The notes beneath the pieces were generated by a model, which had not been told where the DNA came from, made no database searches, and saw nothing but the letters and a program-made list of their open reading frames with translations. From contig CP000069.1 in the NCBI GenBank assembly GCA_000002445.1, positions 832,001 through 896,000 on the forward strand: 64,000 nt of DNA, given 5' to 3'. Shown here piece by piece: positions 21,350-61,573 of this stretch. This stretch comes from Trypanosoma brucei. Taxonomy: Eukaryota. Position 1 is the first letter of the stretch. Every line of letters starts with the position of its first letter. A program made the position numbers and the translations under genes.

Positions 21350-21384
21350 TGTGCGGCGTCACTTCTTTTGCAGTTACGCATATT

Positions 21385-21419
21385 GGGAGGGAGAGGGAGA
21401 GGGAGAGGGAGAGAGAAGG
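21385..21419. repeat. (GGGAGA)n purine microsatellite
   Basis: gggagggagagggagagggagagggagagagaagg, about 35 nt after the PSP1 gene stop. Confidence 0.85.
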
Positions 21420-21800: not shown

Positions 21801-21822
21801 CACACACACACACACACACACA
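21801..21822. repeat. (CA)11 microsatellite
   Basis: cacacacacacacacacacaca. A second (CA)9 lies at 25178-25195. Confidence 0.85.
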
Positions 21823-22069
21823 GAAAATATTCCAGCAGGAACTCTGAGAGTTGTGAGAGGAATATGTTTATATTTGTTTATTTGTTTTTTTTTTGGAGGG
21901 GGGTTGGAGGCAGAAGAAAGGATGGAAGTTCTTAAATTGTTCTTCTCTTCTCTCTTGTACTTCCTCAATATATACATATGACTATCAGATTCTCACATGC
22001 ATATTAATGGAAGTCGTGAACACATTAGAAATTTAGCTTCATACTTCTTTATGCGCATTTTTTTTTTTT

Positions 22070-22087
22070 GGGGGGGGAGGGGAGGGG
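22070..22087 (+). repeat. G-run cluster (G8-A-G4-A-G4), potential G-quadruplex motif
   Basis: ggggggggaggggagggg, preceded by a T12 tract. Confidence 0.6.
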
Positions 22088-25000
22088 CGTTGTTGTTTTA
22101 TTGGCGTGCACTGTAATAATTTAAATATAATCCAGTTACCGAAATGACAACCACTTTTTCTCCTTCTTTTCTGCTATTAGTTTGGTTCATCTTGGGTACA
22201 TTTTTTTTTTGTCCTGTTTTACTTATTTACTTTTTACTATTTCCGCTCTTCTTCTTTTTTTTTCTAAATCATTTCTCCTTGCTGCCATTTTCTTTGGACT
22301 TACCCGTCTGTCCATATTTATATTATTTATATATTTGTTTGTATTTGCACTTTAAAAAAATTTTAAATGTTTTTTCTCCCTGTGCAGCAGCACCTTTTCC
22401 TTTTATGATTTTTTTTCTTCCTTCTTTTTTTTTTTTAAAAATTTTTACCTGTTTGTGGTTGTCATAATTAACCATTAACGCCATAGAGCCGTCGCGGCGC
22501 TCATGAGATCTTTCGTTTTTCTCCCTTTTTTTTGTTTAAATGAAGTTTGTGGAGAGCTTTAAAAAAAAATTGTAGGGGATTTGAGCACCGCGGCAGGCCA
22601 AATTAAAAGGAGGGACAAGACAAAAAAGAAAAAAGAAAAAAACATAGAATTGTAATATTAAAAGAGTGACGGCGAGCCATGAATAAATAATAATAACTAA
22701 AAAGAAGGAGATGATTTTTTTTTTATTTAGAAAAAAAATGAAAACAAAAAAGATAAAACAAAACTTCTTTTTTACGACCAGCGGATACGAGGATTAATAC
22801 AAGTGAAGAAGGAAAGAGAAAGAAAACTGGGGAAAGAAGGTAAAATTACAAAGAAAGGGAAAAGGAAAGGGAAGACAGAAGAAGAAAAGAGAAGAAATGT
22901 GCTACAGCAAACATAAACAACCCTCCAGGTAATTCGAAATTTATATGCATATTTGTCTTTTCTTTAAGTTTTTCTTCATAAATTATTATTATTATTATTA
23001 TTTTTTTCATACACGAAGAGGAATTGTAATTGTTCTTATAGAGGGAAAACAACGCCACCACTTCCATGAAACTTAAGAAAAGATAAAAACAAGTAGCAAT
23101 TTTTTTTCTTTTTTTAAATTCTTCTTCCCACATTTTTTCTCCCTATATTCTTATTTTCTTTACACTGTTTTTATGAGGGAACTCGTAACTTGTCGCTGTG
23201 TTTAGTTGTTTTCATTTGTTTCGTTCTGTATTAAAAGTTGTTGATTTTTTTTTGTTTACTCTTCTCCTCTTGCAATTAGTGATGTTGTTATTTTTGATAG
23301 CCCCGTCTTTGTTTTGTTTTGTGTTTCTTTTTTTTTTTCCTCCTCTTTCGTGTTTCATTTTTGTATGACAACTCGCTCACATTCGCCGCGCCGCTCTTCA
23401 GAGAAACCTCTAGTGGTGGCATGTGCAATGTTAATGCCGAAGAAAATAATATATAAATATTATATATATTATTTATATATTTGTATATGTAAAAGGAAAA
23501 TTAAATATGTGAGATAAAATCAAAGATGAAAGACGAGGTGAAATTAAATAGGACAGAAGAAAAAAGGAAAAAAAAAGTGTCATCGTCGTGATCACAAGAA
23601 TCATCTTTGATTAATGAGTAAGTAAGCAAGTGCGTGTTAATTAAATTAAATTTTGTAACTAATATATAACAAGAAAATGAAAAGAGAATACTTGAGAGAT
23701 GCCAGTTCATTAGATTTCACACCATTTTTTTATTTTTATTTTTATTTTTTCATTAGATTTTTTTTTCATTTTAGATGCAAATGTGGAGAAAAGCGGAAGG
23801 AGTCGTACTGCCGAGTTGAAGGTTTTTTGTAGTACCTTTTTTCTTGTTTCGTTTTTATTTGAAAGTAAATTTGTGGTTCTTTCCTCTTATGCTCTTGTGC
23901 TCATTTACAAATCCTGTTACGGTATAAATTTTTTTTTTTAAAAAAAGAAAGTGAAAAAAGCAAACGGAGCAAATCAAATTGACGAATGAAAGAACGAATA
24001 AATGACAACGAAGAGAAGAAAAAATAAAAAGGAAATTCGTGAACATATGATAAAAAAAACTAAAAACAGGGGGACGAAAAGCAAAAAGAAAAAAACACGT
24101 CAACATAGACAAAAAATACATAGGCAAACATACACGTCGATATTATATAAATATAAATATATTTATTTATTTATTTATATTTATATTTATAGTATTGATG
24201 GTTGTATGTTTGTGTGCGTTGAAAGGGAGTGAGCGCCGATAAACTCCCTTTTGTGCGCCTTTTTGTTGTTGTTTTTTTTTTCCACATGTTTGTGTTTTCG
24301 TTCTCTCACAGTTCTGTTTTACCTATTACTCGTTATCAGTTCACTCCGTTAGATGTTATACCGCTTATTTATTAATATAAATTTATTTCCCTTGCATTTC
24401 CCTCATACCTCATTTCTTTTTTTCTTTTGAGCTCGGTCGCATGTGTGAGTTTATTTTTTTTTTGTCGGAGCTCAATGAATGAAAAGTGAGGAGGAAAAGG
24501 CAAAAAAAAACATATATATATATACTTATTTAATTTATATATGTTTTTTTCCCCTCTTCTGCTTGGGGGTATGTGAGGGAATTTCACCTTCCTGTTTCTG
24601 CAGGAAGTAAACCGCATTTAGATAAATTAAAAAGAAGGAAGAATAAATGTTTGAATCGGTGAATGAACGAAAGAGTGAAGAAATGGAGAAGTTATGGATA
24701 CGGAACAACACTGCGCATAGAAATTTTTTCAATAAAGAAAAACTTTTCCACCTCCCCACCCCTTTCCATCATTTATTTCCTCTTTACTTTTTCTTCTTCA
24801 ACGAAATTTGTTAAATGTGTTATTGTTGATATTATTACTATTACTATTACTATTATTGTCATTATTGCTATTATTATTGTTGTTGTTATTACTGTTAATG
24901 CTGTTACCACTTATGTTGTCGTTATTATTATGTTTTTTTTTTTTCGTTTGACCGCTCATTTATTACTGTTGAGGTATTTCCACCTTATGTGAGCGAACGG

Positions 25001-27091
25001 CTTTGATAAAGTGGTGAAAGTGCCAAGAACTGTAATATAAGTTTTATTATGACAGTATTGACAATAATGATGACAACAACAACAACAATAATAATAATAA
25101 TTCATATGATAGTTGTAACAGCAATAATTTGTAACAACAGTTACAATATTGACAAATAAGTTGATTTCTTCCATGGGACACACACACACACACACCTCTG
25201 TTTTTTTTTCATTTATTTAGGCAATGAAGAGACTGGTGGTATGAAAAAAAACAAAGCTGGAAGGAATGAAGAAGGAGATAAAAGAAAAAGAAGAAATTAA
25301 ACTGGAAAAAAGGGGTTTAGATAATAAACAGTGAAAGTTCCACCTCCATAAACGCACCCACTTCCTTTTCGTATTTGTACGTTTCCTCCTCCCTCTCATT
25401 TTTTTGTTTTAAATGTTGTCGTCGGTTCTTTTCTTCTTCTTTTTTTTTCTCCCCCTTTTTTTTCCCCACTCCTATTCTCTTTCTTGTTTTTTTTTGTATA
25501 CTTCAACTTAAGCAAAGTAAACGAAAAGAAACATTTCTCCATTTTTACTTCCTCGTGAGTCGTCTTTTTTTTTTCTTTTGTGTTGTTTTATTCGAAACCT
25601 TTCTTCCTTCAATTCCAATGATTTCCTCACTTTAAAAGTGAAAGAACAAAAAAAAAAAGAGGAAAACGTTACCAAATTAAGCATGATCAAAACAAAAAAA
25701 GAAAAGATACCAAATATATAAACATATACGTATACGTTGAAATCATGCCTGCGTAAAGAAGAAAAGGAGGAGGAAGAAAGGGGAGAATAATTAAAGGGGG
25801 AAAAAAATAAGAAAAGAAAATAATAAATGGGGTGGAAAAAAAAATTAAAAAGAGACACATGCAGTTGAAGGAAACACAGAAATGTGAGCTGGAAAAAAGG
25901 AAAAAAAAAAGGAATCAAAAGAGAAAGAAAGAGAAAAAAAAAAGAATATGTAACGACCGTATAGAAGCACCGTGACGATGAAGATGATGACAATAATAAT
26001 ACACATCTTTGTCCCCCTACCACCCATACAAAACACTTTAAAACTTTTGCCAGAATTTTTTTACTTTTGTTTTTTTTTCTTACATTCATTTATCTATTCT
26101 GCAGAGAAGAATCTAACTATTTATTGAGTAGATGAATAAATTATAAGAAAAATGACAGAAATGATGGGAAGAAATTCGTTTAAAAAAAATTGGCGATTGT
26201 TTTTGTGTTTGTCTATTTACTTCTTTTTTCGTTATGTTGGTGGCGTTTTTGGTGCAATTTTTTTGTTTCATATAAATATGTTTTTTTTTGGTTACTGTCG
26301 TTGTTATTGTTGCAAAGGGTGTCGCGTGAGTCAGTATATATATATATATATATTTTCTTAGGGGTTCTCACTGTGCGCGCCTCGTATAAAATATAACGTA
26401 AAGTTAAAAAAAAAAAACTTAAACGTAACCAATAAATGTTGACATATATGCATATATATATATATATTAGCTTTACGCTAACGTGCTTCGCTTCTTGTTC
26501 CCTTGTCCATAAAGAAATGTCTATATATTTATCGTTTTGTTTATTCTGTTTCCCCAACACTTCCTCTTAGTGTTTTTACAAATGTGTGATACGCGATGCT
26601 TGCTTCTCTTCTTTTTTCTTTCTTTTTTTTTTTGCTGTCACACTCTTTTTTTTCTTTGAACAATAAATTAAAAATATATAAAATGAGGTAAATAGTGTAA
26701 CTCGACGTTGTTTACTTCAAAGCGCTGCAGTTATTTGTCTCAATAGTTTTTTTTCTTTGATTTCATTATAACATATATATATTCGGCTTATTGCGTCCGT
26801 GCTAAATCTGCATTTGGCTCAAGTGACGAAAATTATTGTTGCATAAATTTGCGAGTACTACAATTACCGCGAAATAAATAGAAGATATTTTAACCTATAG
26901 GTTATAAGGAGGAGTAGTGTTTGAAGAGGAAATTACGCAAAGAGGTAACATATAAAAAAAAGAAGAGAGGGAAGAAAAGAAAGTAGAAAGCAGCCTGCTA
27001 TCAGCAGTGAATACGTAAGTAACAAACTGAAAAACAAAAAAAAACACAAAAGGAAAGAGTCGGAATTGAAGTTAATATTTCATTTGTTCAA

Positions 27092-50157: not shown

Positions 50158-50891
50158 GGTACGGTTTTGAGAGTTTTTTATTTGTATTGTTTTCATGTAC
50201 TTTATCTTTTGTTTACGGTTTCTCGTGTCCTCGTGCAATGACGGGCTCAAAAGCCTTTTATTGCATTGGTTACGCAAAAAAAAATAATAATAATAAGTTC
50301 TTGGCGAAAACTATACTTTGGAGGATAACACGTGGAGAAAAAAAAAAGGAATATATATGGTGCGATGGGGAGAGAGCTGGGTACCTTAAATGGCGCAGTT
50401 AACTACAATTGTTACCAGTGCACTGTTTGTACTCCTTTTTAGTTCTTTTCCTTCACACATGCCAAGGTTTGTGTGATGTCATTTTTTTCGAATGCCTCAT
50501 TGCAAGCCTTTCGTATCGGACTGACGTTTGAAATACTTTTATTTTGTACCAAATTGATTTTCTTTTCGCTTGTATATTCCTCTTCTTCTGATTCTTGCTA
50601 ATATTTGTAGGTACATCACGTGAATAACAGTTTTTGATTTATGCTGTTCCATGTTGTCGTTTTTTTCCCCCTCGTCGAATCACTTAGCAACCTTTTTCAT
50701 ACCTATTCGTGTATTTGTGGGTGGGTTGGTGGATACGTGCTTCCTGTTCATTATTACTACGTATGCAAGGATTGATCGTTGTTACTACCGTTTCCCATCT
50801 CTTTATTGCGATATCACACGAACGAGAAATCTCGTTTTCCAATTTTTTCTTCTTTATTGAAATTACTGGAGGGCATCTCTGTGTTACAGCC

Positions 50892-53800
50892 ATGTCTAAG
50901 CTTTACAAGGCTCAGACAGAGATGGTGCACACATGGGAGTTTACCGCCTTTATCCGTGCAGTAGGCGAAGCCCGCTCTAAACAAGAGGAAGACGAAATCA
51001 TACAACGTGACCTCGGTAATCTCCGCAAATCTTTCGAAACCGCACACGTGGAGGACTGGCTACTGAAAGAGTACGTTGTGCGCGTGCTTTACGCTGAAAT
51101 GCTCGGGCACCCAGCCAAGTTTGCGCACATTCATTGCGTGAACCTTTCAGCAAGCCCTGACTTGCTGGTGAAGCGCACTGGTTACCTTGGAACTTGGCTC
51201 ACAATTGCACCACAGGAGGATATCATGATTCTCATAGTGTCTAATTTGCTACGCGATATGAATTCATGTAATTTTCTTCACACTGCTGCAGCATTAACTG
51301 CGGCATCGAAAGTAGTGCGGCGCGACCTCATCTGTGCGATCAAACCGGAAGTGGTGAAGTTGCTTGACCACTCAGCACCACTAGTACGGAAAAAGGCTGT
51401 GATAGCGCTGCACGCCCTCTATCGTAACACAGCCGATCTTATCGACTACAAAAACTTTTTTCTCAGGGCACTAGGTGATCCTAATCCTGCTGTTGAAGCC
51501 GCCGCACTTTCCCCATTGTTAGACATTGTCCAAACAAATCCCGAATTGTGCCGAGACCTGACAGAGACTTTCATAAAGGTTCTCGAAAAAGTCGTTAGCC
51601 GCCGGCTGTCAGGGGACTACGAGTACCAACGCGTCCCAGGGCCTTGGTTTCAAATCCAAGTTATGCGGATTCTTGCAGCCCTAGTATGTGACAGCCGTGA
51701 ACTTGCTGCAAAGTGTGAGTACGTTTTGACTGAGGTTATCACGAGAGCAGACACGGGGTCTACCATTGGATATGCAGTTGCTTGCGAAGCAATTAGCTTG
51801 ATAACTCGAATTCCGACGATTCCCTCTCTGATCGAACTTTCAGTTGAAACGACCGCAAAGATGTTTGCCACGAGGAATGTGAACTTGCGCTATACTGCTA
51901 TTCAGGCACTTTCCAACCTCGCGTGTATCAACACTGACTATCTTCGCAGACATCAGGAAGACATTTTGGAATGTTTGGGGGATGGTGACGAGATGATTCG
52001 CCGCAAAACGACGTTCCTACTCCTTTCGATGTGCAACGAGGGAAATGTGGATATTATCGTTAAAAAACTGATCAAATATTTGAATAGTCAGATCGATAAG
52101 TATGTTCTTCAAGAGCTCACTCAGAGCATCTGTAGAACGGTGGAGCGTTTCAGCATGAGAAGGCTATGGTATATTAGTACGATGAACAGACTGCTTCTTT
52201 GCGCAGCCGAGCATGTTCCATATTCCTCAATTCAAGGAATGTTGAAACTCATTGTCGAAGGCGGTGAATCTGGGGACGAAGCGTCGGATGTGGCATTTCG
52301 TTTGCGTTGTGTGGAGGATTATTTTGGACTGATTAGTTGCTCACAAAAGAAAATGCCAGATGCTTTGTGTCGTGTGGCCGCGTGGGTTGTTGGTGAGTAT
52401 GGCTTCCTTGCCACTGCGATAAATCGAAGACTGATGGTTGACGGACTGTGCGATTTGTTTGCTAGAACGGACAGCGGTGATGCACGGGATTGGATAATTA
52501 TGGCGGTGATGAAAATTGTTGCCAGTGATGGTGTGGTACCAGAGAATGTGAAGGAGCTCATAGAGCGCTTCAAGGATAGTAGGATCGCTACGACACAACA
52601 ACGCTGTTACGAATTTTCGAGGCTCACGCAAATGTTACCTTTGATGAAACGGTCGCTACCGTTGGATAGGTGTTGTGAAGAGGTCGATATCGAGGAGACA
52701 TTGAGTTTTCTCAACCCCTTCGTGCAGAAGGCGCTGCTCGGTGGTGCAAAACCTTATGAGAAGCGACCTGTTTGCCGCGAGGTTCGGATGGAGATTCCGC
52801 TCTGCATTGAAAAATATGAAACTCCTCAACTGAAAACTTCGGAAGCGAGTTTGACTTGCGAAGTGTGCGACACGGAGGCGAAACCACCGGAACTCGCAAT
52901 ACGCCCCAGCACGAGGCGATGGGGCGCTAAGACCGGTAACGCAGCTGCAATGGTTAACACGGGTTTGGCGCCGGATTCACACATGCGGGAAGTCGGTGGC
53001 GGCGAGAGGATAACCTTATCGGCTCAAGTGGCTCGCACGGGTGCGACGTTAGATGAACCTTGCGGAGTCTTTGGGCCACAATGTGACCAGTCCTTACCAG
53101 CTACCCCACCGACTTTAGGTACAAAGTGTTCTAAAAACAAAAAATTGCTGGAAGATATTTTTGACGCATCAGTTCAGCTGAAAAAATATCCCCACGTTGC
53201 GCAGCAGGTGCCAGATTTATTTGAGGCTGTCGAAGTGGAAAACAAAAAGAATCTGGCAGGAGAGAACGGCTCGGCTCTTAGCGTCCACATGGAACACGTA
53301 AGGGAAGAAAGAGCGGTGGGTATCACATTGTTTATAGTTGGCAACGTAACGGTGAATGATCTAGTAGTCAACGTACTTCCTCCGTCTAACTGCACTCTCC
53401 ATGTCACATCACATTCTGTACAATCTGCGAAGCTTACCGGAAGTACTACTATTACTATGGAGACACTGAAGGTGAATCAGTCACTCGAGGTAGTTATGCA
53501 GCTTCTTCTTACTGGATTCCCAAATGATATGCATGTGCGGGTAAAGGTAGTTTATCGACGCTCCGAACCCTTTGACATGATTGACGTTGGTAAATCAGAG
53601 TCCAAAACTGCGACCATGACGCTGCAAGTCGGTGATTTTCTTCGCCCGGCTTCGTCGATGACTACCGACACGTTCGGCGAGATGTGGCTGAAGTATATCG
53701 GGGAATACAAAACAACACTTCACGGCACTGCAGCATTAACACTTGAGTCTATTAGCCAGTTGCTGATGGAGCGGGCCTCCCTACGTGTCGTAGAAATGAT

Positions 53801-53969
53801 TGGAAATGAACTCATAGTTGCGGCTGTGCTGCCTGGAACTGATCAACTACTACTGGGCCACGTTGTCCTTGTGGATCATCATTGCGCCAACGCGACCTTT
53901 CGTGCGCAAGATAAAAGGTTAGCGGAGTTTGTAGTCCGCTCATTGGACAGCGCGATACCATTGTCGTAG
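50892..53969 (+). CDS. adaptor-protein complex large subunit, AP-4 epsilon-like adaptin
   Basis: Start moved to the ATG at 50892 after the polypyrimidine tract; the track start at 50709 is a GTG. FIRAVGEARSKQEEDEIIQRDLGNLRKSF, VRVLYAEMLGHPAKFAHIHCV, RKKAVIALHALY, YEYQRVPGPWFQIQVMRILAAL, NLRYTAIQALSNL and AAWVVGEYGFLA parallel AP-4 epsilon motifs (SKHEEEKLIQQELSSLK, VPAPWLQIQLLRIL, MSWVLGEYSYLL) better than gamma or alpha adaptin. Confidence 0.7.
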   Translation: MSKLYKAQTEMVHTWEFTAFIRAVGEARSKQEEDEIIQRDLGNLRKSFETAHVEDWLLKEYVVRVLYAEMLGHPAKFAHIHCVNLSASPDLLVKRTGYLGTWLTIAPQEDIMILIVSNLLRDMNSCNFLHTAAALTAASKVVRRDLICAIKPEVVKLLDHSAPLVRKKAVIALHALYRNTADLIDYKNFFLRALGDPNPAVEAAALSPLLDIVQTNPELCRDLTETFIKVLEKVVSRRLSGDYEYQRVPGPWFQIQVMRILAALVCDSRELAAKCEYVLTEVITRADTGSTIGYAVACEAISLITRIPTIPSLIELSVETTAKMFATRNVNLRYTAIQALSNLACINTDYLRRHQEDILECLGDGDEMIRRKTTFLLLSMCNEGNVDIIVKKLIKYLNSQIDKYVLQELTQSICRTVERFSMRRLWYISTMNRLLLCAAEHVPYSSIQGMLKLIVEGGESGDEASDVAFRLRCVEDYFGLISCSQKKMPDALCRVAAWVVGEYGFLATAINRRLMVDGLCDLFARTDSGDARDWIIMAVMKIVASDGVVPENVKELIERFKDSRIATTQQRCYEFSRLTQMLPLMKRSLPLDRCCEEVDIEETLSFLNPFVQKALLGGAKPYEKRPVCREVRMEIPLCIEKYETPQLKTSEASLTCEVCDTEAKPPELAIRPSTRRWGAKTGNAAAMVNTGLAPDSHMREVGGGERITLSAQVARTGATLDEPCGVFGPQCDQSLPATPPTLGTKCSKNKKLLEDIFDASVQLKKYPHVAQQVPDLFEAVEVENKKNLAGENGSALSVHMEHVREERAVGITLFIVGNVTVNDLVVNVLPPSNCTLHVTSHSVQSAKLTGSTTITMETLKVNQSLEVVMQLLLTGFPNDMHVRVKVVYRRSEPFDMIDVGKSESKTATMTLQVGDFLRPASSMTTDTFGEMWLKYIGEYKTTLHGTAALTLESISQLLMERASLRVVEMIGNELIVAAVLPGTDQLLLGHVVLVDHHCANATFRAQDKRLAEFVVRSLDSAIPLS

Positions 53970-54094
53970 GAAGTGAAGAAATATAGCGAGTACATAGTGG
54001 TAAGGAGGAGTCAAGCAACGAACCTTTTCTTTTTAAATTGTATGTAGCTAACGGCTGGTATGTGTTAACCACCGCTCATAGTTTTTTCCCGTAT

Positions 54095-54114
54095 CTGTCT
54101 GTCTGTCTGTCTGT
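54095..54114. repeat. (CTGT)5 tetranucleotide repeat abutting the Pus3-like start codon
   Basis: ctgtctgtctgtctgtctgt immediately 5' of the ATG at 54116. Confidence 0.85.
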
Positions 54115-54115
54115 C

Positions 54116-55492
54116 ATGAATTCAAATGTTAGAAAAGTAGGAATATTTTCTCCTGAACCGCATCATACAGATTCCGCCATACTTGTGAGTGTGAAGCAAG
54201 AGTTGATGTTGAGTGGCAACACCGAAGGAAAACCTCGATCAAAGGAGAGACAGTTTGATTTCTCCAGTTACCCTTCACGGAAGATTGCTCTGCGGTTAGC
54301 TTACCATGGTCACATATATTGCGGGTTAGTGAGACAGGCGGAGACGCCTAACACCGTAGAGGCATATTTAGTTGCTGCGCTGGAACGACTTCGATTTGTG
54401 GAGCCTTCAGGACCTAAAGATTTCTCACGTTGTGGTCGAACGGATAAGGGAGTGAGTGCGCTTGGAAATGTAGTGTCATTTACGTCGCGAGCATCCTCTT
54501 GGGCGACGGACGAACAGCAACAGCCACCGTTAGATTACTGCGAAAAACTGAATAACGTCCTCCCACCAACCATCCGTATTGTTGGATGGTCATATGTGAA
54601 CGCTGATTTTGATGCCCGTTTTTCATGCACTGGGCGAACATATCGTTATTACTTTTGTAATCGGGGACTCAATCTGGAAGCGATGCGCAAGGCTGTAGGG
54701 TACTTGAAGGGTGTGCATAACTTTCGAAACTTTTGTAAAACGGATGTTGTGAACGTGAATAACTACGAGCGCCATGTTCGTCACGCAGATATTGTAGGTA
54801 GTGATATGTTGCCCGATTTGGTATCTTACTTTGAAATCGAAGCAAACTCATTTCTATATAATCAGATACGATGCACTATGGAGGTACTCTTTCTCGTTGG
54901 TCGTTGTTTAGAGGAACCTGAAGTGGTGAAGCAACTCTTAGACTGCGGGGACCGAAAACCCGTGTATCCTCTTGCCGACGCAACACCGCTTGTGTTGTGG
55001 GAGTGTCACTTTGAAGGTGTACGATGGAACATATCTCAACGCGCGTGTCTCAATGCGGAAAGTGAGTTACTAGACATCGCAACTGCGCTTTTGATACGGT
55101 CTACGGTAGCGTTTTCCATGAGATCCCAGTTGTTTGCCTGGTATAGCGAACACACTGACGATAACGGTGAGGCAATTTTCTTTGAAGGGCAGAATCAAGG
55201 GATTTGTCCCGGGGATCAGTGGTCTGTTGTTGGTAGCGACTGGACGGATGAACGCACACACAATAGCCTTCGTGTGCGTAAGTCGGATATATTCGCTCTT
55301 TCTAAGAAAGTAAAAATGGGTTCGAAGGGGCCCTTAACGAGTAAGCCTTACACTAAGTTGCTTGACAGAGAAACTGAACGTACTTTTGAGGAAGAGGTGG
55401 AGCTTCTCAGTGCGAAGAAGCGTGCTAGATTTGAAGTCAACATGGAGAAGAAAAAGTTCCACGAGGAACATCGGTGTGGTAACCCAACTTAA
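54116..55492 (+). CDS. TruA-family tRNA pseudouridine synthase (Pus3/Deg1-like)
   Basis: Start at the ATG at 54116 (MNSNVRKVG), directly after a (CTGT)5 tract; the track start at 54038 is a TTG. LAYHGHIYCGLVRQ and catalytic GRTDKGVSALGNVVSF (GRTDKGVHA). Confidence 0.8.
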   Translation: MNSNVRKVGIFSPEPHHTDSAILVSVKQELMLSGNTEGKPRSKERQFDFSSYPSRKIALRLAYHGHIYCGLVRQAETPNTVEAYLVAALERLRFVEPSGPKDFSRCGRTDKGVSALGNVVSFTSRASSWATDEQQQPPLDYCEKLNNVLPPTIRIVGWSYVNADFDARFSCTGRTYRYYFCNRGLNLEAMRKAVGYLKGVHNFRNFCKTDVVNVNNYERHVRHADIVGSDMLPDLVSYFEIEANSFLYNQIRCTMEVLFLVGRCLEEPEVVKQLLDCGDRKPVYPLADATPLVLWECHFEGVRWNISQRACLNAESELLDIATALLIRSTVAFSMRSQLFAWYSEHTDDNGEAIFFEGQNQGICPGDQWSVVGSDWTDERTHNSLRVRKSDIFALSKKVKMGSKGPLTSKPYTKLLDRETERTFEEEVELLSAKKRARFEVNMEKKKFHEEHRCGNPT

Positions 55493-55595: not shown

Positions 55596-55700
55596 GTCCT
55601 TTTTTTTCCCACCTACTACTACCTTTTCATCCTTTCTCCTATCATTTATATGAGTACATGTTTCCTCGCCGTTTTCTCTCTTCTCTTTTGCTTTTTGTTT
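55596..55700 (+). promoter_or_regulatory. polypyrimidine tract / trans-splice acceptor region upstream of the kinase gene
   Basis: tccttttttttcccacctactactaccttttcatcctttctcctatcatt...ccgttttctctcttctcttttgctttttgttt precedes the ATG at 55705. Confidence 0.5.
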
Positions 55701-55704
55701 GCGT

Positions 55705-58700
55705 ATGGACTCTCAAAGTGATATTCGTCACCATTGTCCTGCGATGGCCAGCGAGTGCTCCGCTTTACCTGATGCGTCACTTCTGCTGGTGCTGCTGGAC
55801 GGGCGTCTGCGTTGCGTTTCTCTGAAGGACGGCAGAGAACGTTGGTCTGCTCAGCTCCCTTGTGGTGAGATGTTTAGCTGCGGCGAGTCGGGAATTATTT
55901 CTGAAAGGAGGCAAATGCATCCGTCTCCTTCCGATTTTGCAACATGTAAGCAGTGCGAAGTCATGGGGGCGCGATATGGTAACTCCTCTACAACGGATAG
56001 GTATGTATCCGTTGTGCAAAACCCATGTGGTGGTTGTAGCGGGTTGTCCCAGCATCCCTTCTGTGCTTCGTTACCGAATAACGAGGTAGATTGCTGTCTC
56101 ATTTTATCACCACGGGAATCTTCGGACGTCGGCCGTTCCCCGTCATTTGAGTGGTACTTTTCAGGAGGGGTGAGTGGGAAAGGACGTGATAAATTATATT
56201 TTCCGGTAGATGTGTTGCTTGAGCATTTTAGTGCCTCTCGCTGTCCAGCACATGGGCTGCGGGATTTGAATCATAGAGAGAGTGTGTACATTGAGTTTGA
56301 CTTTGATAACGGTGTGGAACTTTTTCATCTCAGTGCTGAGAGGGGACTTTCGGTGCCTCGGCCTCGGAGGCCCCTGAATGATAATGTCAGCTCTGACACC
56401 GCTGTTGCAAGTGATGGGAATGATGGTCCTCAGATGCCACTTTGTTCAACTTCCCAAATTCGCATTGCTGTTCAGCGTGCGACGGATTATCGAACCCTTT
56501 TCTTTCCACCAGTCCCTCGTTACAGATCAGGCCCGTCAAAAGGAGTAGAAGACAACAGTCGCTCCCTTTTTGTAAAAAAATCAACGGTAATCATAAATAT
56601 TGTTGGCTGCCTCGAAACGAATTCACTGGAAGGAACAGGATTGGACGACACGCTACGTATTGAACAAACGCTCTCCGATAGCGGCGTTCGTGTTCATTGG
56701 CTTGCAGTTGGAGACAATAATAATGGCCCACAACCCACAGTGCCCGTTTCACCAGGTATTGTAGAATCTTCTCCTGTTGTTTCCGCATATGTTTTACATC
56801 CTCACCGATTGGCTACTGGTAATGCAGTTACTGAAGAGTATTGCGCGGGGGTTACTGATTTTGATGACGGAACTAGTTATGTTATGGCTTGCTGTCAAAT
56901 TCCTATTTTAAATTCATCTTCGGAGCCATCGAAGCATGTGTTGAGTATCCAGTCGTGCTTTCCTGAGAATTTTCGTCGGAAGCGGCTGCATGGGTTTGTC
57001 AATAGACAGTATGGAGTTTTCTTCTCGGAAAGTTTAAATGTGCCATCGAGCAGCTCAAGCAGCACAGTTTCTCCCTCGCCGCTTCCTACAGGCTCTGAGT
57101 GTGCATCCAACGATAATGAGAACATCTCTAATAAAGCGATGGGCGACGGCTTTTTTTCGTGTGAGGAATCTGGGGAGGAGGCGAACCACCCATCCCCAAA
57201 TGAAATGTCGAGCGGTGCGTTAGTGCTTGGGAAGAGTTTGCTGTCTTTCAGTGAAAGTGAAAATGTTGAGGCGAGAACACAAGAAAACTTCATGAGCGGA
57301 AAACAATCTTTCTTCGACGAGAACTTTGATGTTTTGATGATTTTGGGCAGTGGTGCCTCCGGTGTGGTGCTTCTCACCCGACACCGTGTTACTGGTGTTT
57401 TGTACGCCGTTAAGGTGTTGATTGTGAGAGATAAATTTGCGGAAACTGCTGTGATGCAAGAAGTGCGATTGCATGCTGTACTTCACAATGAGCACATCGT
57501 TCGTTATTACACCTGTTGGTCGGAGATGATCACACCAGCGCGGTTGCGCCAACTTGCCAGTGTTGGTCTTTGCAGCAAAAGGGAAGTAAGGCAAACATTT
57601 AGGGCTTTGGAAGCCAATTGTGTTAGTTGTGGAAGCAGCCATGAGGGTGCCGGCTGGTTGATACCCAGGCACGAGGGTCAATTAGGTAATTTGCTACTGT
57701 TGAAGTCACCTGCGGAGGATTGCGCTGGAGTTTACATGGCAGGAGATGACACGGTCGATGATGGCACAGGCTCTACAGCTGGGTCTCATACAGAACCTTC
57801 AGAGGATGGCTCTGACGACACAAGGTCAAACTCGTGTGAATCATCGTCTTCAGAACGAAGTTCATCAATTCTTGAGGGGCGTGTTGTGTTTCTTCAACTA
57901 GAGTATTATCGTACAACATTAGCGCAGCGTCTGGGGTCCCGAGGCAGCATAGACCGTTTTGAGAACATAATTATCGCACTACAGTTGTTCGCGGCAGTTC
58001 GTTATGTACACAGGTCGGGTTTCCTTCACAGGGATGTAAAACCTCCCAACATATTCATTGATTACCGTGTACAATTTTCAGGAGTAGATGGCCCAGGTGA
58101 AGAAGACAACGATGAATATGATTACGACCTGGACGAAAGTGATGGAAACGGTTGGACATGTACCAGTGTAAGAGAAGAAAAGGAAGAAAGGAAAATGTGG
58201 ACAGAGCCGGTGAATGGTGGTGGAAATGATGATGTATCTGCACCCCACCAAGCTTTCCAATCCGTTTTTGAGTTTCTGCAGTTCTACGCAACCACGCCGC
58301 CTTTGTCAACGTACCTAAAGAAGATAAAGTGTGCTCAAAACGAGGAGCAGAAGCGTCGGGCAGTGTATCTCATCGGAAAGTGGACATGCAAACGCTTCCT
58401 TCAGGTGCGACTTGGGGATTTCAGTATATCAAAATCCTTTTTGGCTCAACACGTAGAGCTGGCGTCGAACTTTGGTCGTACGGCAATGAATACGACTGGA
58501 ATTGGCTCATCATTGTATTCTAGTCCTGAGCAACTGGACGGGGAACACTGTACGAGTTCATCTGATGCGTATTCCTGTGGTATTGTGCTTGCAGAGATGT
58601 ACGTACAGCCTAAAACTGTGTCTGAGAGGCTTCATGTGTTGAAGGCTGTGCGCAACGGCGTTTTTCCAGAGAGCAGTCTTCTCAAAAGGTACCCGGAGCT

Positions 58701-58821
58701 CTGTGTGGTACAATACCTGACGCTAAAGGATCCGTCGCATCGCATGTCCCTTATGGACGCCAGCCGAGCTCTACGTCGAACGGTTTACCGTATATTGCTC
58801 TCCTTTTTTTCTGAGGTGTGA
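55705..58821 (+). CDS. protein kinase with large inserts, PERK/eIF2-alpha-kinase-like
   Basis: Start at the ATG at 55705; the track start at 55699 is a TTG. Kinase subdomains: ILGSGASGVVLL (Gly loop), YAVKVL (Lys), HRDVKPPNIFID, GDFSISKS (DFG replaced by DFS), YSSPEQ, DAYSCGIVLAEM. There are long acidic/S-rich inserts between the N-lobe and the catalytic loop and before the activation segment. N-terminal LLLVLLDGRLRCVSLKDGRERWSAQ resembles IRE1/PERK luminal propeller repeats. Confidence 0.6.
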   Translation: MDSQSDIRHHCPAMASECSALPDASLLLVLLDGRLRCVSLKDGRERWSAQLPCGEMFSCGESGIISERRQMHPSPSDFATCKQCEVMGARYGNSSTTDRYVSVVQNPCGGCSGLSQHPFCASLPNNEVDCCLILSPRESSDVGRSPSFEWYFSGGVSGKGRDKLYFPVDVLLEHFSASRCPAHGLRDLNHRESVYIEFDFDNGVELFHLSAERGLSVPRPRRPLNDNVSSDTAVASDGNDGPQMPLCSTSQIRIAVQRATDYRTLFFPPVPRYRSGPSKGVEDNSRSLFVKKSTVIINIVGCLETNSLEGTGLDDTLRIEQTLSDSGVRVHWLAVGDNNNGPQPTVPVSPGIVESSPVVSAYVLHPHRLATGNAVTEEYCAGVTDFDDGTSYVMACCQIPILNSSSEPSKHVLSIQSCFPENFRRKRLHGFVNRQYGVFFSESLNVPSSSSSSTVSPSPLPTGSECASNDNENISNKAMGDGFFSCEESGEEANHPSPNEMSSGALVLGKSLLSFSESENVEARTQENFMSGKQSFFDENFDVLMILGSGASGVVLLTRHRVTGVLYAVKVLIVRDKFAETAVMQEVRLHAVLHNEHIVRYYTCWSEMITPARLRQLASVGLCSKREVRQTFRALEANCVSCGSSHEGAGWLIPRHEGQLGNLLLLKSPAEDCAGVYMAGDDTVDDGTGSTAGSHTEPSEDGSDDTRSNSCESSSSERSSSILEGRVVFLQLEYYRTTLAQRLGSRGSIDRFENIIIALQLFAAVRYVHRSGFLHRDVKPPNIFIDYRVQFSGVDGPGEEDNDEYDYDLDESDGNGWTCTSVREEKEERKMWTEPVNGGGNDDVSAPHQAFQSVFEFLQFYATTPPLSTYLKKIKCAQNEEQKRRAVYLIGKWTCKRFLQVRLGDFSISKSFLAQHVELASNFGRTAMNTTGIGSSLYSSPEQLDGEHCTSSSDAYSCGIVLAEMYVQPKTVSERLHVLKAVRNGVFPESSLLKRYPELCVVQYLTLKDPSHRMSLMDASRALRRTVYRILLSFFSEV

Positions 58822-59236
58822 GAATATGTGGAATACCTCCTCTTCGTTTGCCTGTTGGTTATCCACTCTGAGAATAAGTCAAATATTTCCTTTTTGATCT
58901 CGCAAACTCCCGAAAGTACGATAATATGTGGGCGAAAGAATCTCATGTTGCTAGTTTCTGGCAGTTGTCTATATATATATATATATTATTGTTATCACAT
59001 ATTATATACATTTCGCACATACAAAAACTGTTTCTGCCCTTAATTTTTTTGCCTCTCTGTCATTGTCAGAACAGTAATATTTATATCTTTTCATTCCTTC
59101 GATTTTCTTTCATTGTTGTTGTTGTTCACACTCTCTTTTATGATGTTAATGCGTTTCGCCCGATTTGTTAAACTGAAAACATGATTTAAAAAAAGGCTCC
59201 GTGGGTGCCTTAAGATTCATCATTTGTACTGCAGCG

Positions 59237-60235
59237 ATGGCACTCATGTGGCGGTGGGTCTCTCTTGGTGGATGGTGTGGCCCGCATCTTATGCTGTCCA
59301 AATTAAACGCTCCCATCAGTGCGGTGAAGCTACCATTCGATATGGCGCGCTGCAGCTTTGATGGGCTACTGGAGTTCACCAACCGCGGATTCGACGAAGG
59401 TTTTTTTCCAGGGCCGTTGCAGTCCCGCCCCTTCACACCTGATGCGGCGTCCATTTGGTTGTTGTTCCGCGGTCAACATACTTGTATTACACATTTTAAC
59501 CTCAACAATGATAATATCGTTCAGGAGTTTGTAAATCGCTTTGATGCGTGGGAGAGAATGCTGCTTCACCCCTCGCATCCAGTAACGTTTCTCCGTACTA
59601 GCATAGCGGAGGATGCTTCTGAGGAAGTAGAGCTAATACCACAATTTCACTCCGCGCTGCAAGAGAAAAGCGCAGGCAGGTTAAAATTTCGTACAGTTAT
59701 GGTCCTCCATGACCAGGGGCCCACAACTTGTCGTGTGGCCGAGTTTACGGCCCAAGATGCAGCAGGAGCACCATGTGTTGTGTGGAACCTTGCACTAGAT
59801 AAAAGTTTACCAAGCACCGCATCACTGCTTGACCGCTGCCACGACGGATACGCGCAAATAATTAGTGAAATGAGCAGTGAGGGTGCATGGCAGTTTTCCA
59901 CGAGGTTTCTTTGCCTACCCGCACCGAAACCTTACACAAATCTTTCACGAGTGGAGGGCGTTCCTGCGCTCCGGGGTTCATGCACTGGTTTCGGTACAAC
60001 CCACGCCGCACGACTGGGTCGCTGCTTAAGTTGTGGCGCAACGGATGGACACAAAGTTGTGCAGGACGCATTCGATACGAAACGACCTTGGGAAACTGCG
60101 GAGGAGGTTGTGCTCGTTGAAAAGTTGTTTCAGGCAGGTGGTGATGAGGTTGCAGCGGTGGAGGCTGCTGCACTGGAACTGAAGCGAGGTGCCAACGAAG
60201 TGTTGTTACGTTTGCGTTACGTTACGCAATGCTGA
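59237..60235 (+). CDS. hypothetical protein
   Basis: Track start at 59201 is a GTG; the first ATG is at 59237 (MALMWRWVSLGGW, hydrophobic/amphipathic, possibly organellar). 332-aa coding-strand ORF; no recognised domain. Confidence 0.4.
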   Translation: MALMWRWVSLGGWCGPHLMLSKLNAPISAVKLPFDMARCSFDGLLEFTNRGFDEGFFPGPLQSRPFTPDAASIWLLFRGQHTCITHFNLNNDNIVQEFVNRFDAWERMLLHPSHPVTFLRTSIAEDASEEVELIPQFHSALQEKSAGRLKFRTVMVLHDQGPTTCRVAEFTAQDAAGAPCVVWNLALDKSLPSTASLLDRCHDGYAQIISEMSSEGAWQFSTRFLCLPAPKPYTNLSRVEGVPALRGSCTGFGTTHAARLGRCLSCGATDGHKVVQDAFDTKRPWETAEEVVLVEKLFQAGGDEVAAVEAAALELKRGANEVLLRLRYVTQC

Positions 60236-60526
60236 GGTACACATACCAAGGATTGAATGTTTACTACCCCTTCCGGCGTCTTTCTTTTAACATATGGAAT
60301 ACCAATCAATGCAGTCTGAATTGTTGAAAGGAGGTAGTGAAACCTCAAATAAACTGCGTTTTTGTCTCCCCACATGTTGCTCTACCGTGTTTATCTCCCT
60401 TTCGCTTAAGAATGTAGGTTTGCATCATTTTTTCCCTTTGTTTCCTCATTTCCTCTGCCCTTTACGCTGATTTCATTGGCAAGAAAAGACGATAGTTGTG
60501 GCACATCATTAAATAACGGTGCGGTG

Positions 60527-61573
60527 ATGCTGGCTTCTCAACTGAAAACCGCGGCGGAAAAGCTCACTGAACATTGTGGAAGAGATGATTACTACTGGAC
60601 AACTGACAATGAAATGCATGCCGTGCGGCGGAGGAAGATGCTGGAAAAGTATAGCAGTGAAATCAAGAAACTCTATGGACCTGATCCACTAACATGGAAA
60701 ATCGCAACGGCGGTCGTTCTCTTTCAGATTTTCCTGGGCTCATTGGCGTCCAGCATGAGTTGGCCTGTGTTTCTGCTTACCGCTTATGCAATTGGTGGTA
60801 CGGCGACGCACAACAGCTTCTTGGCCGTCCACGAAATAACTCACAACTTGGCATTTCGTAAGGCTGTGCACAACGAGTTGTTTGCCATATTCCTTAATAT
60901 AATTGTGCCCCTACCGTACGCAATGGGATTTAAATCTCATCACAGGGATCATCACAATTACTTAGGGTGGGAGCGTGTTGACCCAGATTTACCGACGGCG
61001 CTGGAAGGGAAATTGCTTTCCAGCTACATTGGCAAATTTTTCTTTGTTACGTTCCAAGTTTTCTTCTACGCACTTCGTCCCACTCTTGTTAGAAAAATGA
61101 AAATAACGAGGATGCATGTACTAAATATTGTTGCTCAAATTATATTTGATGTTATATTTTACATGTTATTTGGACCGTGGTGTATTATTTACTTCTTCTT
61201 ATCACTCGTGTTGGGTACTGGTTGGCACCCATTGGCTGGTCACTTCCTTACTGAGCATTATATCTTTCAAGGTGACGGAAGTCAGGAAACCTTTTCTTAT
61301 TATGGTCCACTGAACTGGTTAGCTTGGAATGTCGGCCATCACGTGGAGCATCATGATTTCCCGTACGTTCCGTGGAGGCATCTGCACAAACTTCGTGAAA
61401 TTGCCCCTGAATTCTACGAAAACCTTGAGGTGACCCCCTCGTGGCCTCTTGCCTTATACGATTTCGTGTTTAAAGTTAACATGAATCCGTTCTCACGTAC
61501 CGTGCGTAGGAAAGGGTCATATCTACATCCAGATTTGCGGTCCGCTGAGGTAATCGGAAAGGAAGAAAATTAA
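60527..61573 (+). CDS. sphingolipid delta-4 desaturase (dihydroceramide desaturase, DEGS family)
   Basis: Track start at 60476 is a TTG; the first ATG is at 60527. N-terminal Lipid_DES region DYYWTTDNEMHAVRRRKMLEKYSSEIKKLYGPDPL. Histidine boxes HEITHN, HHRDHH and HVEHHDFPYVPW. Multiple hydrophobic spans. Confidence 0.85.
   Translation: MLASQLKTAAEKLTEHCGRDDYYWTTDNEMHAVRRRKMLEKYSSEIKKLYGPDPLTWKIATAVVLFQIFLGSLASSMSWPVFLLTAYAIGGTATHNSFLAVHEITHNLAFRKAVHNELFAIFLNIIVPLPYAMGFKSHHRDHHNYLGWERVDPDLPTALEGKLLSSYIGKFFFVTFQVFFYALRPTLVRKMKITRMHVLNIVAQIIFDVIFYMLFGPWCIIYFFLSLVLGTGWHPLAGHFLTEHYIFQGDGSQETFSYYGPLNWLAWNVGHHVEHHDFPYVPWRHLHKLREIAPEFYENLEVTPSWPLALYDFVFKVNMNPFSRTVRRKGSYLHPDLRSAEVIGKEEN

What the first reader, a model, noticed from the sequence alone, without database searches (positions are those of the whole stretch)
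55705..58821. PERK/eIF2-alpha-kinase-like kinase with DFG-to-DFS substitution and two long inserts
All core kinase motifs are present (GSGASG, VAVK-type Lys, HRDVKPPN, SPE). The magnesium-binding DFG is DFS (RLGDFSISKS). The catalytic domain is split by long acidic/serine-rich inserts, a hallmark of eIF2-alpha kinases. The N-terminal 500 aa contain LLLVLLDGRL...DGRERW-type repeats reminiscent of the IRE1/PERK luminal sensor, but I cannot see an obvious signal peptide or a strong transmembrane helix. My recollection is that T. brucei has an eIF2K3/PK3 on this chromosome that acts in the spliced-leader silencing stress pathway. This ORF is a candidate for it, but that is memory, not evidence from the sequence.
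Basis: partly seen in the sequence, partly recalled or inferred. Interest (0 to 1): 0.5.

Follow-up and report, generated by a model that had tools for sequence, protein, structure and literature searches.

The report
Trypanosoma brucei stress kinase PK3 (eIF2K3)
This ORF is the already-studied Trypanosoma brucei kinase PK3/eIF2K3, which shuts off spliced-leader RNA synthesis under ER stress; its N-terminal half has the fold of the PERK/IRE1 stress-sensor domain but no signal peptide or membrane anchor.

Summary
The ORF at 55705-58821 (+) is real and encodes 1038 aa. It is 100% identical to T. brucei TREU927 XP_845419.1 / UniProt Q583N6. The literature names this protein PK3 = TbeIF2K3 = Tb927.6.2980, the kinase that triggers spliced-leader silencing (SLS).

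- The best sequence and fold matches are the four eIF2-alpha kinases.
- Insert 1 (aa 611-723) is the canonical beta4-beta5 insert.
- Insert 2 (aa 788-899) lies at a non-canonical site, between the catalytic loop and DFS. It is specific to the trypanosomatid K3 clade and ends in a confidently modelled three-helix module.
- DFS is a single-transition change confined to the T. brucei group and T. congolense. All other orthologues keep DFG. It does not imply a dead kinase.

What may be new: the sensor fold in a protein with no membrane topology, the lineage-specific DFS (absent from a published list of T. brucei DFS kinases), the helical module in insert 2, and a conserved CxxC...CxxH motif.

The parts
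55705..58821 (+). Annotated PK3/TbeIF2K3 coding sequence (1038 aa plus stop)
   Evidence: ORF list and translation. 100% identity and coverage to XP_845419.1 / Q583N6.
55596..55703 (+). Polypyrimidine tract running up to ATG 55705. The first downstream AG is at 55717-55718, inside the annotated ORF.
   Evidence: Sequence read. It suggests a trans-splice acceptor downstream of M1 (inference).
55744..55746 (+). Probable true start codon (M14, 'MASECS...')
   Evidence: All residue numbers in PMC8630539 (Y554, F771, S606/628/707/708, T917, ATP site 534-542) fit this sequence only with an offset of -13. The N-termini of the orthologues are of matching length.
55774..57027 (+). N-terminal domain (aa 24-441) with the PERK/IRE1 luminal stress-sensor fold
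55780..55854 (+). PQQ-like first beta-hairpin, LLLVLLDGRLRCVSLKDGRERWSAQ (aa 26-50)
   Evidence: It aligns to the first hairpin of the PERK and IRE1 luminal domains and to PQQ propeller repeats. D32, G33 and W47 are invariant or nearly invariant in the family.
55945..55956 (+). Conserved CxxC (C81-K-Q-C84)
   Evidence: Present in every complete Trypanosoma or Leishmaniinae-type orthologue and absent from deeper relatives.
56242..56253 (+). Conserved C-x-x-H (C180-P-A-H183), part of a W-N-x-x-C-C-x-x-H motif in the orthologues
   Evidence: Motif scan. Together with the CxxC it is a candidate zinc or redox site (inference).
57040..57306 (+). Ser/acidic-rich linker with low model confidence (aa 446-534). 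No hydrophobic segment where PERK has its TM helix.
   Evidence: pLDDT below 40. Hydropathy.
57307..58818 (+). eIF2-alpha-kinase-type catalytic domain (aa 535-1038)
   Evidence: Pfam Pkinase E 1e-28. PDB sequence hits to HRI, PERK, GCN2 and PKR. AF2 model with pTM 0.69; best fold match is the mouse PERK kinase domain 3qd2, E 1e-12.
57346..57363 (+). Glycine loop GSGASG (aa 548-553)
   Evidence: G548 and G550 are invariant in the family.
57412..57414 (+). Catalytic Lys K570 (YAVK)
   Evidence: invariant.
57535..57873 (+). Insert 1 (aa 611-723) between beta4 and beta5. This is the canonical eIF2-alpha-kinase insert. It carries the SLS-induced phosphosites S619, S641, S720 and S721 (S606, S628, S707 and S708 in the paper).
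   Evidence: Alignments. The model shows two helices at aa 611-640 followed by disorder. Phosphosites are from PMC8630539.
58027..58050 (+). Catalytic loop HRDVKPPN (aa 775-782)
   Evidence: H, R, D, K, P and N are invariant.
58066..58401 (+). Insert 2 (aa 788-899) between beta7 and beta8, that is, between the catalytic loop and DFS
   Evidence: HRD-to-DFx spacing is 130 aa here. It is about 20 aa in ordinary kinases and in deep relatives, 121-137 aa in other Trypanosoma, and 189-448 aa in the other trypanosomatid-type relatives.
58264..58395 (+). Conserved three-helix module at the C-terminal end of insert 2 (aa 854-897)
   Evidence: pLDDT about 90 in the AF2 model. The sequence is conserved across Trypanosoma and partly in Leishmaniinae-type orthologues.
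58417..58425 (+). DFS (aa 905-907) in place of DFG; the Ser codon is AGT
   Evidence: Shared with T. b. gambiense, T. equiperdum and T. congolense only.
58492..58497 (+). Activation-loop T930 and T931. T930 is T917 in the paper, the analogue of mouse PERK T980.
   Evidence: Offset mapping.
58522..58530 (+). SPE (aa 940-942), the APE equivalent
   Evidence: Invariant in the family.
58615..58629 (+). T971-V-S-E974-R975, the start of the alphaG 'T..ER' signature shared by eIF2-alpha kinases
   Evidence: It aligns with HRI GTEMER, PERK STQMER and GCN2 STGMER. T, E and R are invariant in the K3 family.

Best explanation
The ORF is T. brucei PK3 (TbeIF2K3, Tb927.6.2980). It is a catalytically competent Ser/Thr kinase of the eIF2-alpha-kinase (PEK) family.

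Architecture (shown here):
- An N-terminal domain with the PERK/IRE1 luminal stress-sensor fold, but no signal peptide and no transmembrane helix.
- A disordered Ser/acidic linker.
- A PEK-type kinase domain with the canonical beta4-beta5 insert.
- A second, clade-specific insert before beta8 that ends in a three-helix module.
- DFS instead of DFG.

[quoted passage not shown] On perturbation of protein translocation or folding it becomes multiply phosphorylated, and this needs its own ATP site. [quoted passage not shown] This stops SL RNA transcription, and with it all trans-splicing, and leads to programmed cell death.

Inferred here: PK3 descends from a PERK-like membrane kinase that lost its signal peptide and TM helix. 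Its sensor domain now works on the cytosolic side, for example by binding untranslocated or unfolded polypeptides or a chaperone. That binding would drive oligomerisation and trans-autophosphorylation. The Gly-to-Ser change in DFG is a recent modification in the brucei/congolense lineage. It tunes the activation segment rather than inactivating it.
For: Identity:
- 100% identity over 100% of the length to XP_845419.1 / Q583N6.
- PMC8630539 uses Q583N6 and Tb927.6.2980 for PK3.
- PMC7618733 equates TbeIF2K3 with PK3.

Family:
- PDB sequence hits to HRI (6e-28), PERK (8e-21), GCN2 (2e-20) and PKR.
- Best fold hits are PERK, PKR and GCN2.
- The alphaG T..ER signature is retained.

Catalytic competence:
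- K570, E586, D777, N782, D905 and SPE are all invariant in the family.
- F771L in the ATP site abolishes PK3 phosphorylation.
- In TbDYRK, another T. brucei kinase with DFS, S-to-A keeps about 70% of activity and S-to-G lowers it.

Sensor fold:
- Foldseek's top 11 hits are all PERK or IRE1 luminal domains.
- The profile search gives PERK E 0.02 and IRE1 E 0.05.
- hhalign gives E 2.5e-5.

No signal peptide or TM helix:
- Hydropathy in the K3 clade reaches at most 1.88, and the peaks lie in the first beta-strand or in the kinase core.
- The PERK-like relatives P0037-P0039 have both a signal peptide and a TM helix, at 1.9-2.4.
- PK3 is not among the transmembrane kinases discussed in the T. brucei membrane-kinome preprint; the eIF2 kinase it names is eIF2K2.
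Against: - The mean pLDDT of the N-terminal model is only 53.8. About 57% of residues are below 50, so only the beta core is reliable.
- Sequence-level support for the sensor homology is marginal (E 0.02-0.16, hhalign probability 75%).
- No dedicated signal-peptide or TM predictor was available. In some orthologues (T. rangeli, hydropathy 1.88) the first strand looks somewhat like a signal sequence.
- PK3 needs several detergents to be released from membranes. A purely peripheral protein does not obviously explain this.
- The key primary papers (Hope 2014, Moraes 2007) could not be read.
- Sensing of cytosolic clients is an inference with no direct evidence.
- None of the accessible texts shows whether PK3 phosphorylates eIF2-alpha.
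Confidence: 0.9

Rival explanations
1. It is a pseudokinase. The loss of the DFG glycine, together with two large inserts, leaves a scaffold without catalytic activity.
For: DFS replaces DFG. The activation segment is further altered in the brucei/congolense lineage: GSPLY becomes GSSLY and DFGLAK becomes DFSISK.
Against: - The Mg-binding Asp (D905) and every other catalytic residue are intact and invariant.
- The DFS kinase TbDYRK is active, and its Ser is needed for full activity.
- The ATP-site mutant F771L abolishes PK3 phosphorylation, and PK3 is reported to phosphorylate TRF4 Ser35.
Confidence: 0.03
2. It is a true PERK orthologue: a type I ER membrane protein whose signal peptide and TM helix were missed. 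In that case the sensor domain is luminal, as in animals.
For: - The N-terminal domain has the PERK/IRE1 luminal fold.
- PK3 is tightly membrane-associated and needs several detergents for extraction.
- The first strand is hydrophobic, reaching 1.88 in T. rangeli.
Against: - No segment between the sensor domain and the kinase exceeds 1.5 in T. brucei. No orthologue has a TM-like peak in that linker. Relatives with the genuine PERK topology show peaks of 1.9-2.4 at both expected places.
- The hydrophobic N-terminal stretch aligns with beta-strand 1 of the PERK/IRE1 fold, so it is not an extra leader.
- PK3 moves to the nucleus and is described as non-transmembrane.
Confidence: 0.05
3. It is an HRI-like (heme-regulated) eIF2-alpha kinase, as the T. 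cruzi orthologue TcK3 is labelled in a 2026 review.
For: The single best PDB sequence hit is the HRI kinase domain, 9rhh, at E 6e-28. A review table lists TcK3 as 'HRI-like'.
Against: - The kinase-domain scores do not separate HRI, PERK, GCN2 and PKR by much. The best fold match is PERK.
- No heme-regulatory evidence exists for K3.
Confidence: 0.05

Closest known systems
T. brucei PK3 / TbeIF2K3 (Tb927.6.2980; UniProt Q583N6)
   Same: It is the same protein, with 100% identity over all 1038 aa. Published function: the SLS-inducing kinase that phosphorylates TRF4 Ser35.
   Different: Nothing differs at sequence level. The published residue numbering starts at M14 rather than at the M1 of the GenBank/UniProt model.
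Metazoan PERK (EIF2AK3)
   Same: - The fold of the N-terminal sensor domain.
- A PEK-type kinase domain; the best fold match is mouse PERK 3qd2.
- A long beta4-beta5 insert that is phosphorylated on activation.
- Association with the ER.
   Different: - No signal peptide and no TM helix.
- An extra insert of about 112 aa between the catalytic loop and DFS.
- DFS instead of DFG.
- The established substrate is the TATA-binding protein TRF4 in the nucleus, not (as far as shown) eIF2-alpha.
- A trypanosomatid-specific insertion carrying CxxC...CxxH inside the sensor fold.
IRE1 luminal domain
   Different: There is no RNase domain, and the kinase is of PEK type. Trypanosomatids are reported to lack IRE1.
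TbDYRK (Tb927.10.15020), a T. brucei kinase with DFS
   Same: DFS replaces DFG in a kinase that also has unusual inserts. The Ser is compatible with activity and in fact required for full activity.
   Different: TbDYRK is in the CMGC group and has an unrelated function. The published list of four T. brucei DFS kinases does not include Tb927.6.2980.
TbeIF2K2 / TcK2 / Leishmania PERK homologue
   Same: A PEK-family paralogue in the same organisms.
   Different: K2 has a signal peptide and a TM helix, and it localises to the flagellar pocket, endosomes or ER. K3 has neither. No K2 sequence was compared directly here.

Membership tests
T. brucei PK3 / TbeIF2K3 (Tb927.6.2980) | Sequence identity to the protein studied under that name | tested here: met
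   100% identity and coverage to XP_845419.1 / UniRef100_Q583N6. PMC8630539 gives Q583N6 and Tb927.6.2980 for PK3.
Catalytically competent eukaryotic protein kinase | Gly-loop, VAIK Lys, alphaC Glu, HRD Asp, catalytic Asn, DFG Asp, APE Glu | tested here: met
   GSGASG 548-553, K570, E586, D777, N782, D905 and E942 are all present and invariant across the family.
Catalytically competent eukaryotic protein kinase | Canonical DFG glycine | tested here: not met
   The motif is DFS (S907, codon AGT). This residue is not essential for catalysis: the DFS kinase TbDYRK is active.
eIF2-alpha kinase (PEK) family | Kinase domain closest to HRI, PERK, GCN2 and PKR | tested here: met
   The top 19 PDB sequence hits are these four kinases. 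The top 36 Foldseek hits are PERK, PKR and GCN2.
eIF2-alpha kinase (PEK) family | Insert between beta4 and beta5 | tested here: met
   An insert of about 113 aa at aa 611-723.
eIF2-alpha kinase (PEK) family | alphaG substrate-docking signature (T..ER...L...R) | tested here: met
   PKTVSERLHVLKAVR aligns with HRI, PERK and GCN2. T971, E974 and R975 are invariant. The role of this helix in docking eIF2-alpha comes from general knowledge of PKR-eIF2-alpha structures.
eIF2-alpha kinase (PEK) family | Phosphorylates eIF2-alpha (Thr169 in trypanosomatids) | not testable with these tools
   The accessible papers report TRF4 Ser35 as the substrate. None shows eIF2-alpha phosphorylation by PK3.
PERK (EIF2AK3) | PERK/IRE1-type stress-sensor domain N-terminal to the kinase | tested here: met
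PERK (EIF2AK3) | N-terminal signal peptide | tested here: not met
   The only hydrophobic N-terminal stretch (1.45) is beta-strand 1 of the sensor fold, and it is preceded by acidic residues. No dedicated predictor was available.
PERK (EIF2AK3) | Single TM helix between the sensor and kinase domains | tested here: not met
   No 19-residue window above 1.5 in T. brucei and none in the linker of any K3 orthologue. PERK-like relatives show 2.1-2.25 at that place. The literature says PK3 is not a transmembrane protein.
HRI (EIF2AK1) | HRI-type N-terminal regulatory domain | tested here: not met

The most novel reading that the evidence does not exclude
PK3 may be a 'delocalised PERK'. On this reading, a kinase that kept the PERK/IRE1 unfolded-protein sensor fold lost its signal peptide and membrane anchor. 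[quoted passage not shown] There it could detect untranslocated or misfolded precursor proteins, or titration of a cytosolic chaperone, when ER or mitochondrial import fails.

The trypanosomatid-specific CxxC...CxxH insertion would add zinc-dependent or redox-dependent control. In the brucei/congolense lineage, the DFS change would hold the kinase in a rigid, pre-activated state.

This would explain mechanistically why SLS is triggered by translocon, SRP-receptor, TIMRHOM1 and thiol-redox perturbations.
Probability: 0.3. Interest if true: 0.65.

Novelty: already known. Interest (0 to 1): 0.35.

Why it matters
PK3 is the switch for spliced-leader silencing. This trypanosome-specific death pathway has been proposed as a drug target, through PK3 activators.

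How a kinase without a luminal portion senses ER, Golgi and mitochondrial import stress is still open. [quoted passage not shown]

Showing that this half has the PERK/IRE1 sensor fold, in a protein with no membrane topology, gives concrete and testable hypotheses: the topology, client or chaperone binding, the Cys/His site, S907 and the helical module in insert 2.

It also corrects the 'HRI-like' label used for the T. cruzi orthologue.

As a genome-scan finding, the gene itself is not new.

Tried and rejected
1. A word-indexed homologue search with the N-terminal 530 aa returned nothing, not even the protein itself. The full-length search found only 5 proteins. I attribute this to saturation of the candidates by low-complexity words. 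The exhaustive representative search supplied the orthologues instead.
2. Pfam does not detect the sensor domain. It gave only sub-threshold ADD_DNMT3 and Arm_3 noise.
3. Moraes 2007 could not be read by DOI or by PMC id. Hope 2014 was not retrieved either. Statements about those papers come from later papers that cite them.
4. The pseudokinase reading was rejected (see rival explanations).
5. The 'repeats' reading of the N-terminal motif was rejected. Only one PQQ-like hairpin matches.
6. A search of the Cayla 2020 supplements for Tb927.6.2980 found nothing. How that survey classified PK3 is therefore unknown.
7. The window has no tRNA genes and no Rfam family hits, and the AT-rich gap at 21-27.5 kb has no tandem repeats.
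The spatial proximity of C81, C84, C180 and H183 could not be checked.
Full report
**1. Observation**

The window holds a 1038-codon ORF on the + strand from ATG 55705 to the stop at 58819-58821. All 24 ORFs of at least 250 aa in the window are on the + strand, as expected for a trypanosomatid polycistronic unit.

- GSGASG at 548-553.
- YAVK with K570.
- HRDVKPPN at 775-782.
- RLGDFSISKS with DFS at 905-907 (GAT TTC AGT).
- SPE at 940-942.
- No DFG or APE anywhere.

Pfam Pkinase matches at E 1e-28 in three separate stretches, because two inserts interrupt the domain.

**2. Identity**

The protein is 100% identical over its full length to 'protein kinase, putative' of T. brucei brucei TREU927 (XP_845419.1, AAZ11860.1, UniRef100_Q583N6). 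That record is 1,618,915 bp long. T. b. gambiense and T. equiperdum carry near-identical copies.

Okalang et al. 2021 (PMC8630539) tag 'PK3 (Tb927.6.2980)' and model 'PK3 (UniProtKB Q583N6)'. A 2022 review (PMC7618733) equates TbeIF2K3 with PK3. By its systematic name, the gene lies on chromosome 6.

**3. What is known from experiments (papers, not tested here)**

- SLS is triggered by depletion of SEC63, BiP, calreticulin, ERO1, QSOX or mitochondrial TIMRHOM1, and by low pH, DTT or 2-deoxyglucose.
- On these triggers PK3 becomes phosphorylated, including on S606, S628, S707 and S708. [quoted passage not shown]
- SL RNA transcription then stops and the cell dies.
- The ATP-site mutant F771L abolishes PK3 phosphorylation and largely blocks translocation.
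- The paper states that PK3, unlike PERK, has no transmembrane domain and 'only associates with the ER'. Several detergents are nevertheless needed to release it.

**4. Kinase family**

The best PDB sequence hits are HRI (6e-28), PERK (8e-21), GCN2 (2e-20) and PKR. Wee1, CDPK and Chk1 follow only at E 1e-11 or weaker.

An AlphaFold2 model of aa 525-1038, built on 13 family members, has pTM 0.69. Its closest structures are mouse PERK 3qd2 (E 1e-12), then PKR and GCN2, and the top 36 hits are all eIF2-alpha kinases.

The alphaG segment PKT971VSE974R975LHVLKAVR aligns with the T..ER signature of HRI, PERK and GCN2, and it is invariant in the clade. From general knowledge of the PKR-eIF2-alpha complex, this helix docks eIF2-alpha. 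The family assignment is therefore secure. Whether PK3 still phosphorylates eIF2-alpha could not be established.

**5. The two inserts**

Insert 1 (aa 611-723) lies between beta4 and beta5, the hallmark position for eIF2-alpha kinases. In the model it begins with two helices (aa 611-640) and is then disordered. The four mapped SLS phosphosites fall in it: S619, S641, S720 and S721 in window numbering.

Insert 2 (aa 788-899) is different. It lies between beta7 and beta8, that is, between the catalytic loop and DFS. The HRD-to-DFx distance varies as follows:

| Group | HRD-to-DFx distance (aa) |
|---|---|
| T. brucei | 130 |
| T. congolense, T. grayi, T. rangeli, T. vivax | 121-137 |
| Other trypanosomatid-type relatives (Leptomonas seymouri and unidentified assemblies) | 189-311 |
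| Two giant relatives (P0029, P0030) | about 440-450 |
| Most deep relatives and PERK-like proteins | about 20-27 (the normal value) |

A few deep relatives have intermediate values of 45-97 aa.

Insert 2 has an acidic disordered part (aa 794-847). This is followed by three helices (aa 854-897) with pLDDT about 90 and conserved sequence, which lead straight into beta8. 'Two eIF2-kinase inserts' is therefore only half right: the second insert is a clade-specific addition.

**6. DFS**

T. b. brucei, T. b. gambiense, T. equiperdum and T. congolense have GDFSISK. T. vivax has GDFGIST. T. grayi, T. rangeli, Leptomonas and all Leishmaniinae-type sequences have GDFGLAK. Deeper relatives have DFG, DLG or DMG.

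The change is a single transition (GGT to AGT). It is most simply placed in the common ancestor of the brucei group and T. congolense. In these species the activation segment also changed from GSPLY to GSSLY.

DFS does not mean an inactive kinase:
- The Mg-binding Asp and all other catalytic residues are intact.
- PK3 is functionally active (section 3).
- In TbDYRK, another T. brucei DFS kinase, S-to-G lowers activity and S-to-A keeps about 70% of it. The authors of that study interpret the Ser as stiffening a 'DFS-in', pre-activated state (PMC7136023).

That study lists four T. brucei DFS kinases, and Tb927.6.2980 is not among them. The long insert 2 may have hidden the motif from their alignment (inference).

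**7. N-terminal half**

The exhaustive search found full-length orthologues (E 1e-134 to 1e-194) and deeper relatives that share the N-terminal domain.

A 12-sequence profile of the N-terminal region, searched against all PDB sequences, returned only 12 chains at E up to 10. They were PQQ-propeller repeat proteins, the PERK luminal domain (4yzy, 5v1d, 4yzs; E 0.02-0.16, in two regions), the IRE1 luminal domain (2hz6, 6shc; E 0.05-0.08) and BamB. hhalign against four PERK-type luminal domains gave E 2.5e-5 with probability 75%.

An AF2 model of aa 1-535 has low overall confidence (mean pLDDT 53.8), but its beta core is confident, at 75-92. Two independent fold searches gave the same result:
- Foldseek: the first 11 hits are all PERK or IRE1 luminal domains (E 1.2e-7 to 0.027). 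The next hit is at E 0.39.

It occurs once and is not a repeat.

**8. Topology**

No 19-residue window in PK3 exceeds a hydropathy of 1.49. Across the K3 clade the peaks fall in the first beta-strand or in the kinase core, and never in the linker. The PERK-like relatives P0037-P0039 have both a signal-peptide-like peak and a transmembrane peak, at 1.9-2.4. A preprint on T. brucei kinases with predicted transmembrane domains names eIF2K2 but not K3 in the passages read.

PK3 thus fails two defining features of PERK, the signal peptide and the TM helix, while meeting the other two, the sensor fold and the PEK kinase. I therefore describe it as PERK-derived in architecture, not as a PERK.

The 'HRI-like' label given to TcK3 in a 2026 review is not supported by the regulatory domain.

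**9. Mechanism**

Shown by others: ER association, phosphorylation, nuclear entry, TRF4 S35 phosphorylation and SL RNA shut-off.

Shown here: the domain architecture described above.

Inferred: the sensor domain, now in the cytosol, binds clients or a chaperone when translocation fails. It then oligomerises, as PERK and IRE1 do, and the kinase domains trans-autophosphorylate insert 1. This releases the protein for nuclear import. This reading fits the list of SLS triggers, but it has not been tested.

A trypanosomatid-specific insertion in the fold (aa 63-166, low confidence) is flanked by a conserved CxxC (C81, C84) and a conserved W-N-x-x-C-C-x-x-H motif (C180, H183). This may be a zinc or redox site. 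That is notable because DTT and depletion of ERO1 or QSOX induce SLS.

**10. Verdict**

The gene is already known and functionally characterised. Four points are worth passing to specialists, although I could not verify that they are unpublished:
- The sensor fold in a protein with no membrane topology.
- The lineage-restricted DFS.
- The structured module in insert 2.
- The Cys/His motif.

Noticed in passing
window 55596-55746: A long polypyrimidine tract runs right up to the annotated ATG (55705). No AG occurs until 55717-55718, which is inside the ORF. All published PK3 residue numbers fit only if the protein starts at M14 (ATG 55744). The orthologues' N-termini also match that length. The GenBank/UniProt start is therefore probably 13 codons too early.
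   Followed up: partly
window 55945-55956 and 56242-56253: A CxxC (C81, C84) and a W-N-x-x-C-C-x-x-H motif (C180, H183) are conserved in every complete Trypanosoma or Leishmaniinae-type K3 orthologue. They are absent from deeper relatives. This may be a zinc or redox site inside the sensor fold.
   Followed up: partly
window 58417-58425; PMC7136023: A published survey of unconventional DFG motifs lists four DFS kinases in T. brucei: Tb927.9.1670, Tb927.10.15020, Tb927.10.16160 and Tb927.11.5340. It does not list Tb927.6.2980, although PK3 clearly has DFS.
   Followed up: partly
window 58492-58530: In the brucei/congolense lineage the activation segment changed at further positions besides DFG: DFGLAK to DFSISK, NTVGVGSPLY to NT(T/M)GIGSSLY.
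   Followed up: no
window 54038-55492 and protein P0023: The upstream gene is a PseudoU_synth_1 pseudouridine synthase (Pfam E 4e-26). P0023, a 2161-aa predicted protein from an unidentified kinetoplastid-like assembly, fuses a 50%-identical synthase to a K3-type kinase. This shows conserved gene order, and P0023 is probably a read-through gene call.
   Followed up: partly
window 50709-53969, 59201-60235, 60476-61573: The neighbouring genes are an AP-4 epsilon-type adaptin, a DUF1796 putative papain-like cysteine peptidase, and a sphingolipid delta-4 desaturase.
   Followed up: no
window 21350-27090: An AT-rich stretch (GC about 0.30 at 22-26 kb, against about 0.44 elsewhere) has no ORF of 250 aa or more, no tandem repeats, no tRNA genes and no Rfam hit.
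   Followed up: partly
proteins P0006, P0007 versus window ORF: Of the 12 amino-acid differences between T. b. brucei and T. b. gambiense PK3, 11 lie in the N-terminal domain or linker. Only one (D945E) lies in the kinase domain.
   Followed up: no
proteins P0029, P0030: Two giant relatives (4181 and 3519 aa, organism unknown) carry the same kinase with an insert of about 440 aa between the catalytic loop and DFG. Most of each protein is low-complexity sequence.
   Followed up: no
proteins P0037-P0039: These relatives have the complete PERK topology: signal peptide, PQQ-like hairpin sensor domain, TM helix, and a kinase with normal HRD-DFG spacing. They are useful outgroups for testing whether K3 lost its anchor. 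Their organisms were not identified.
   Followed up: partly
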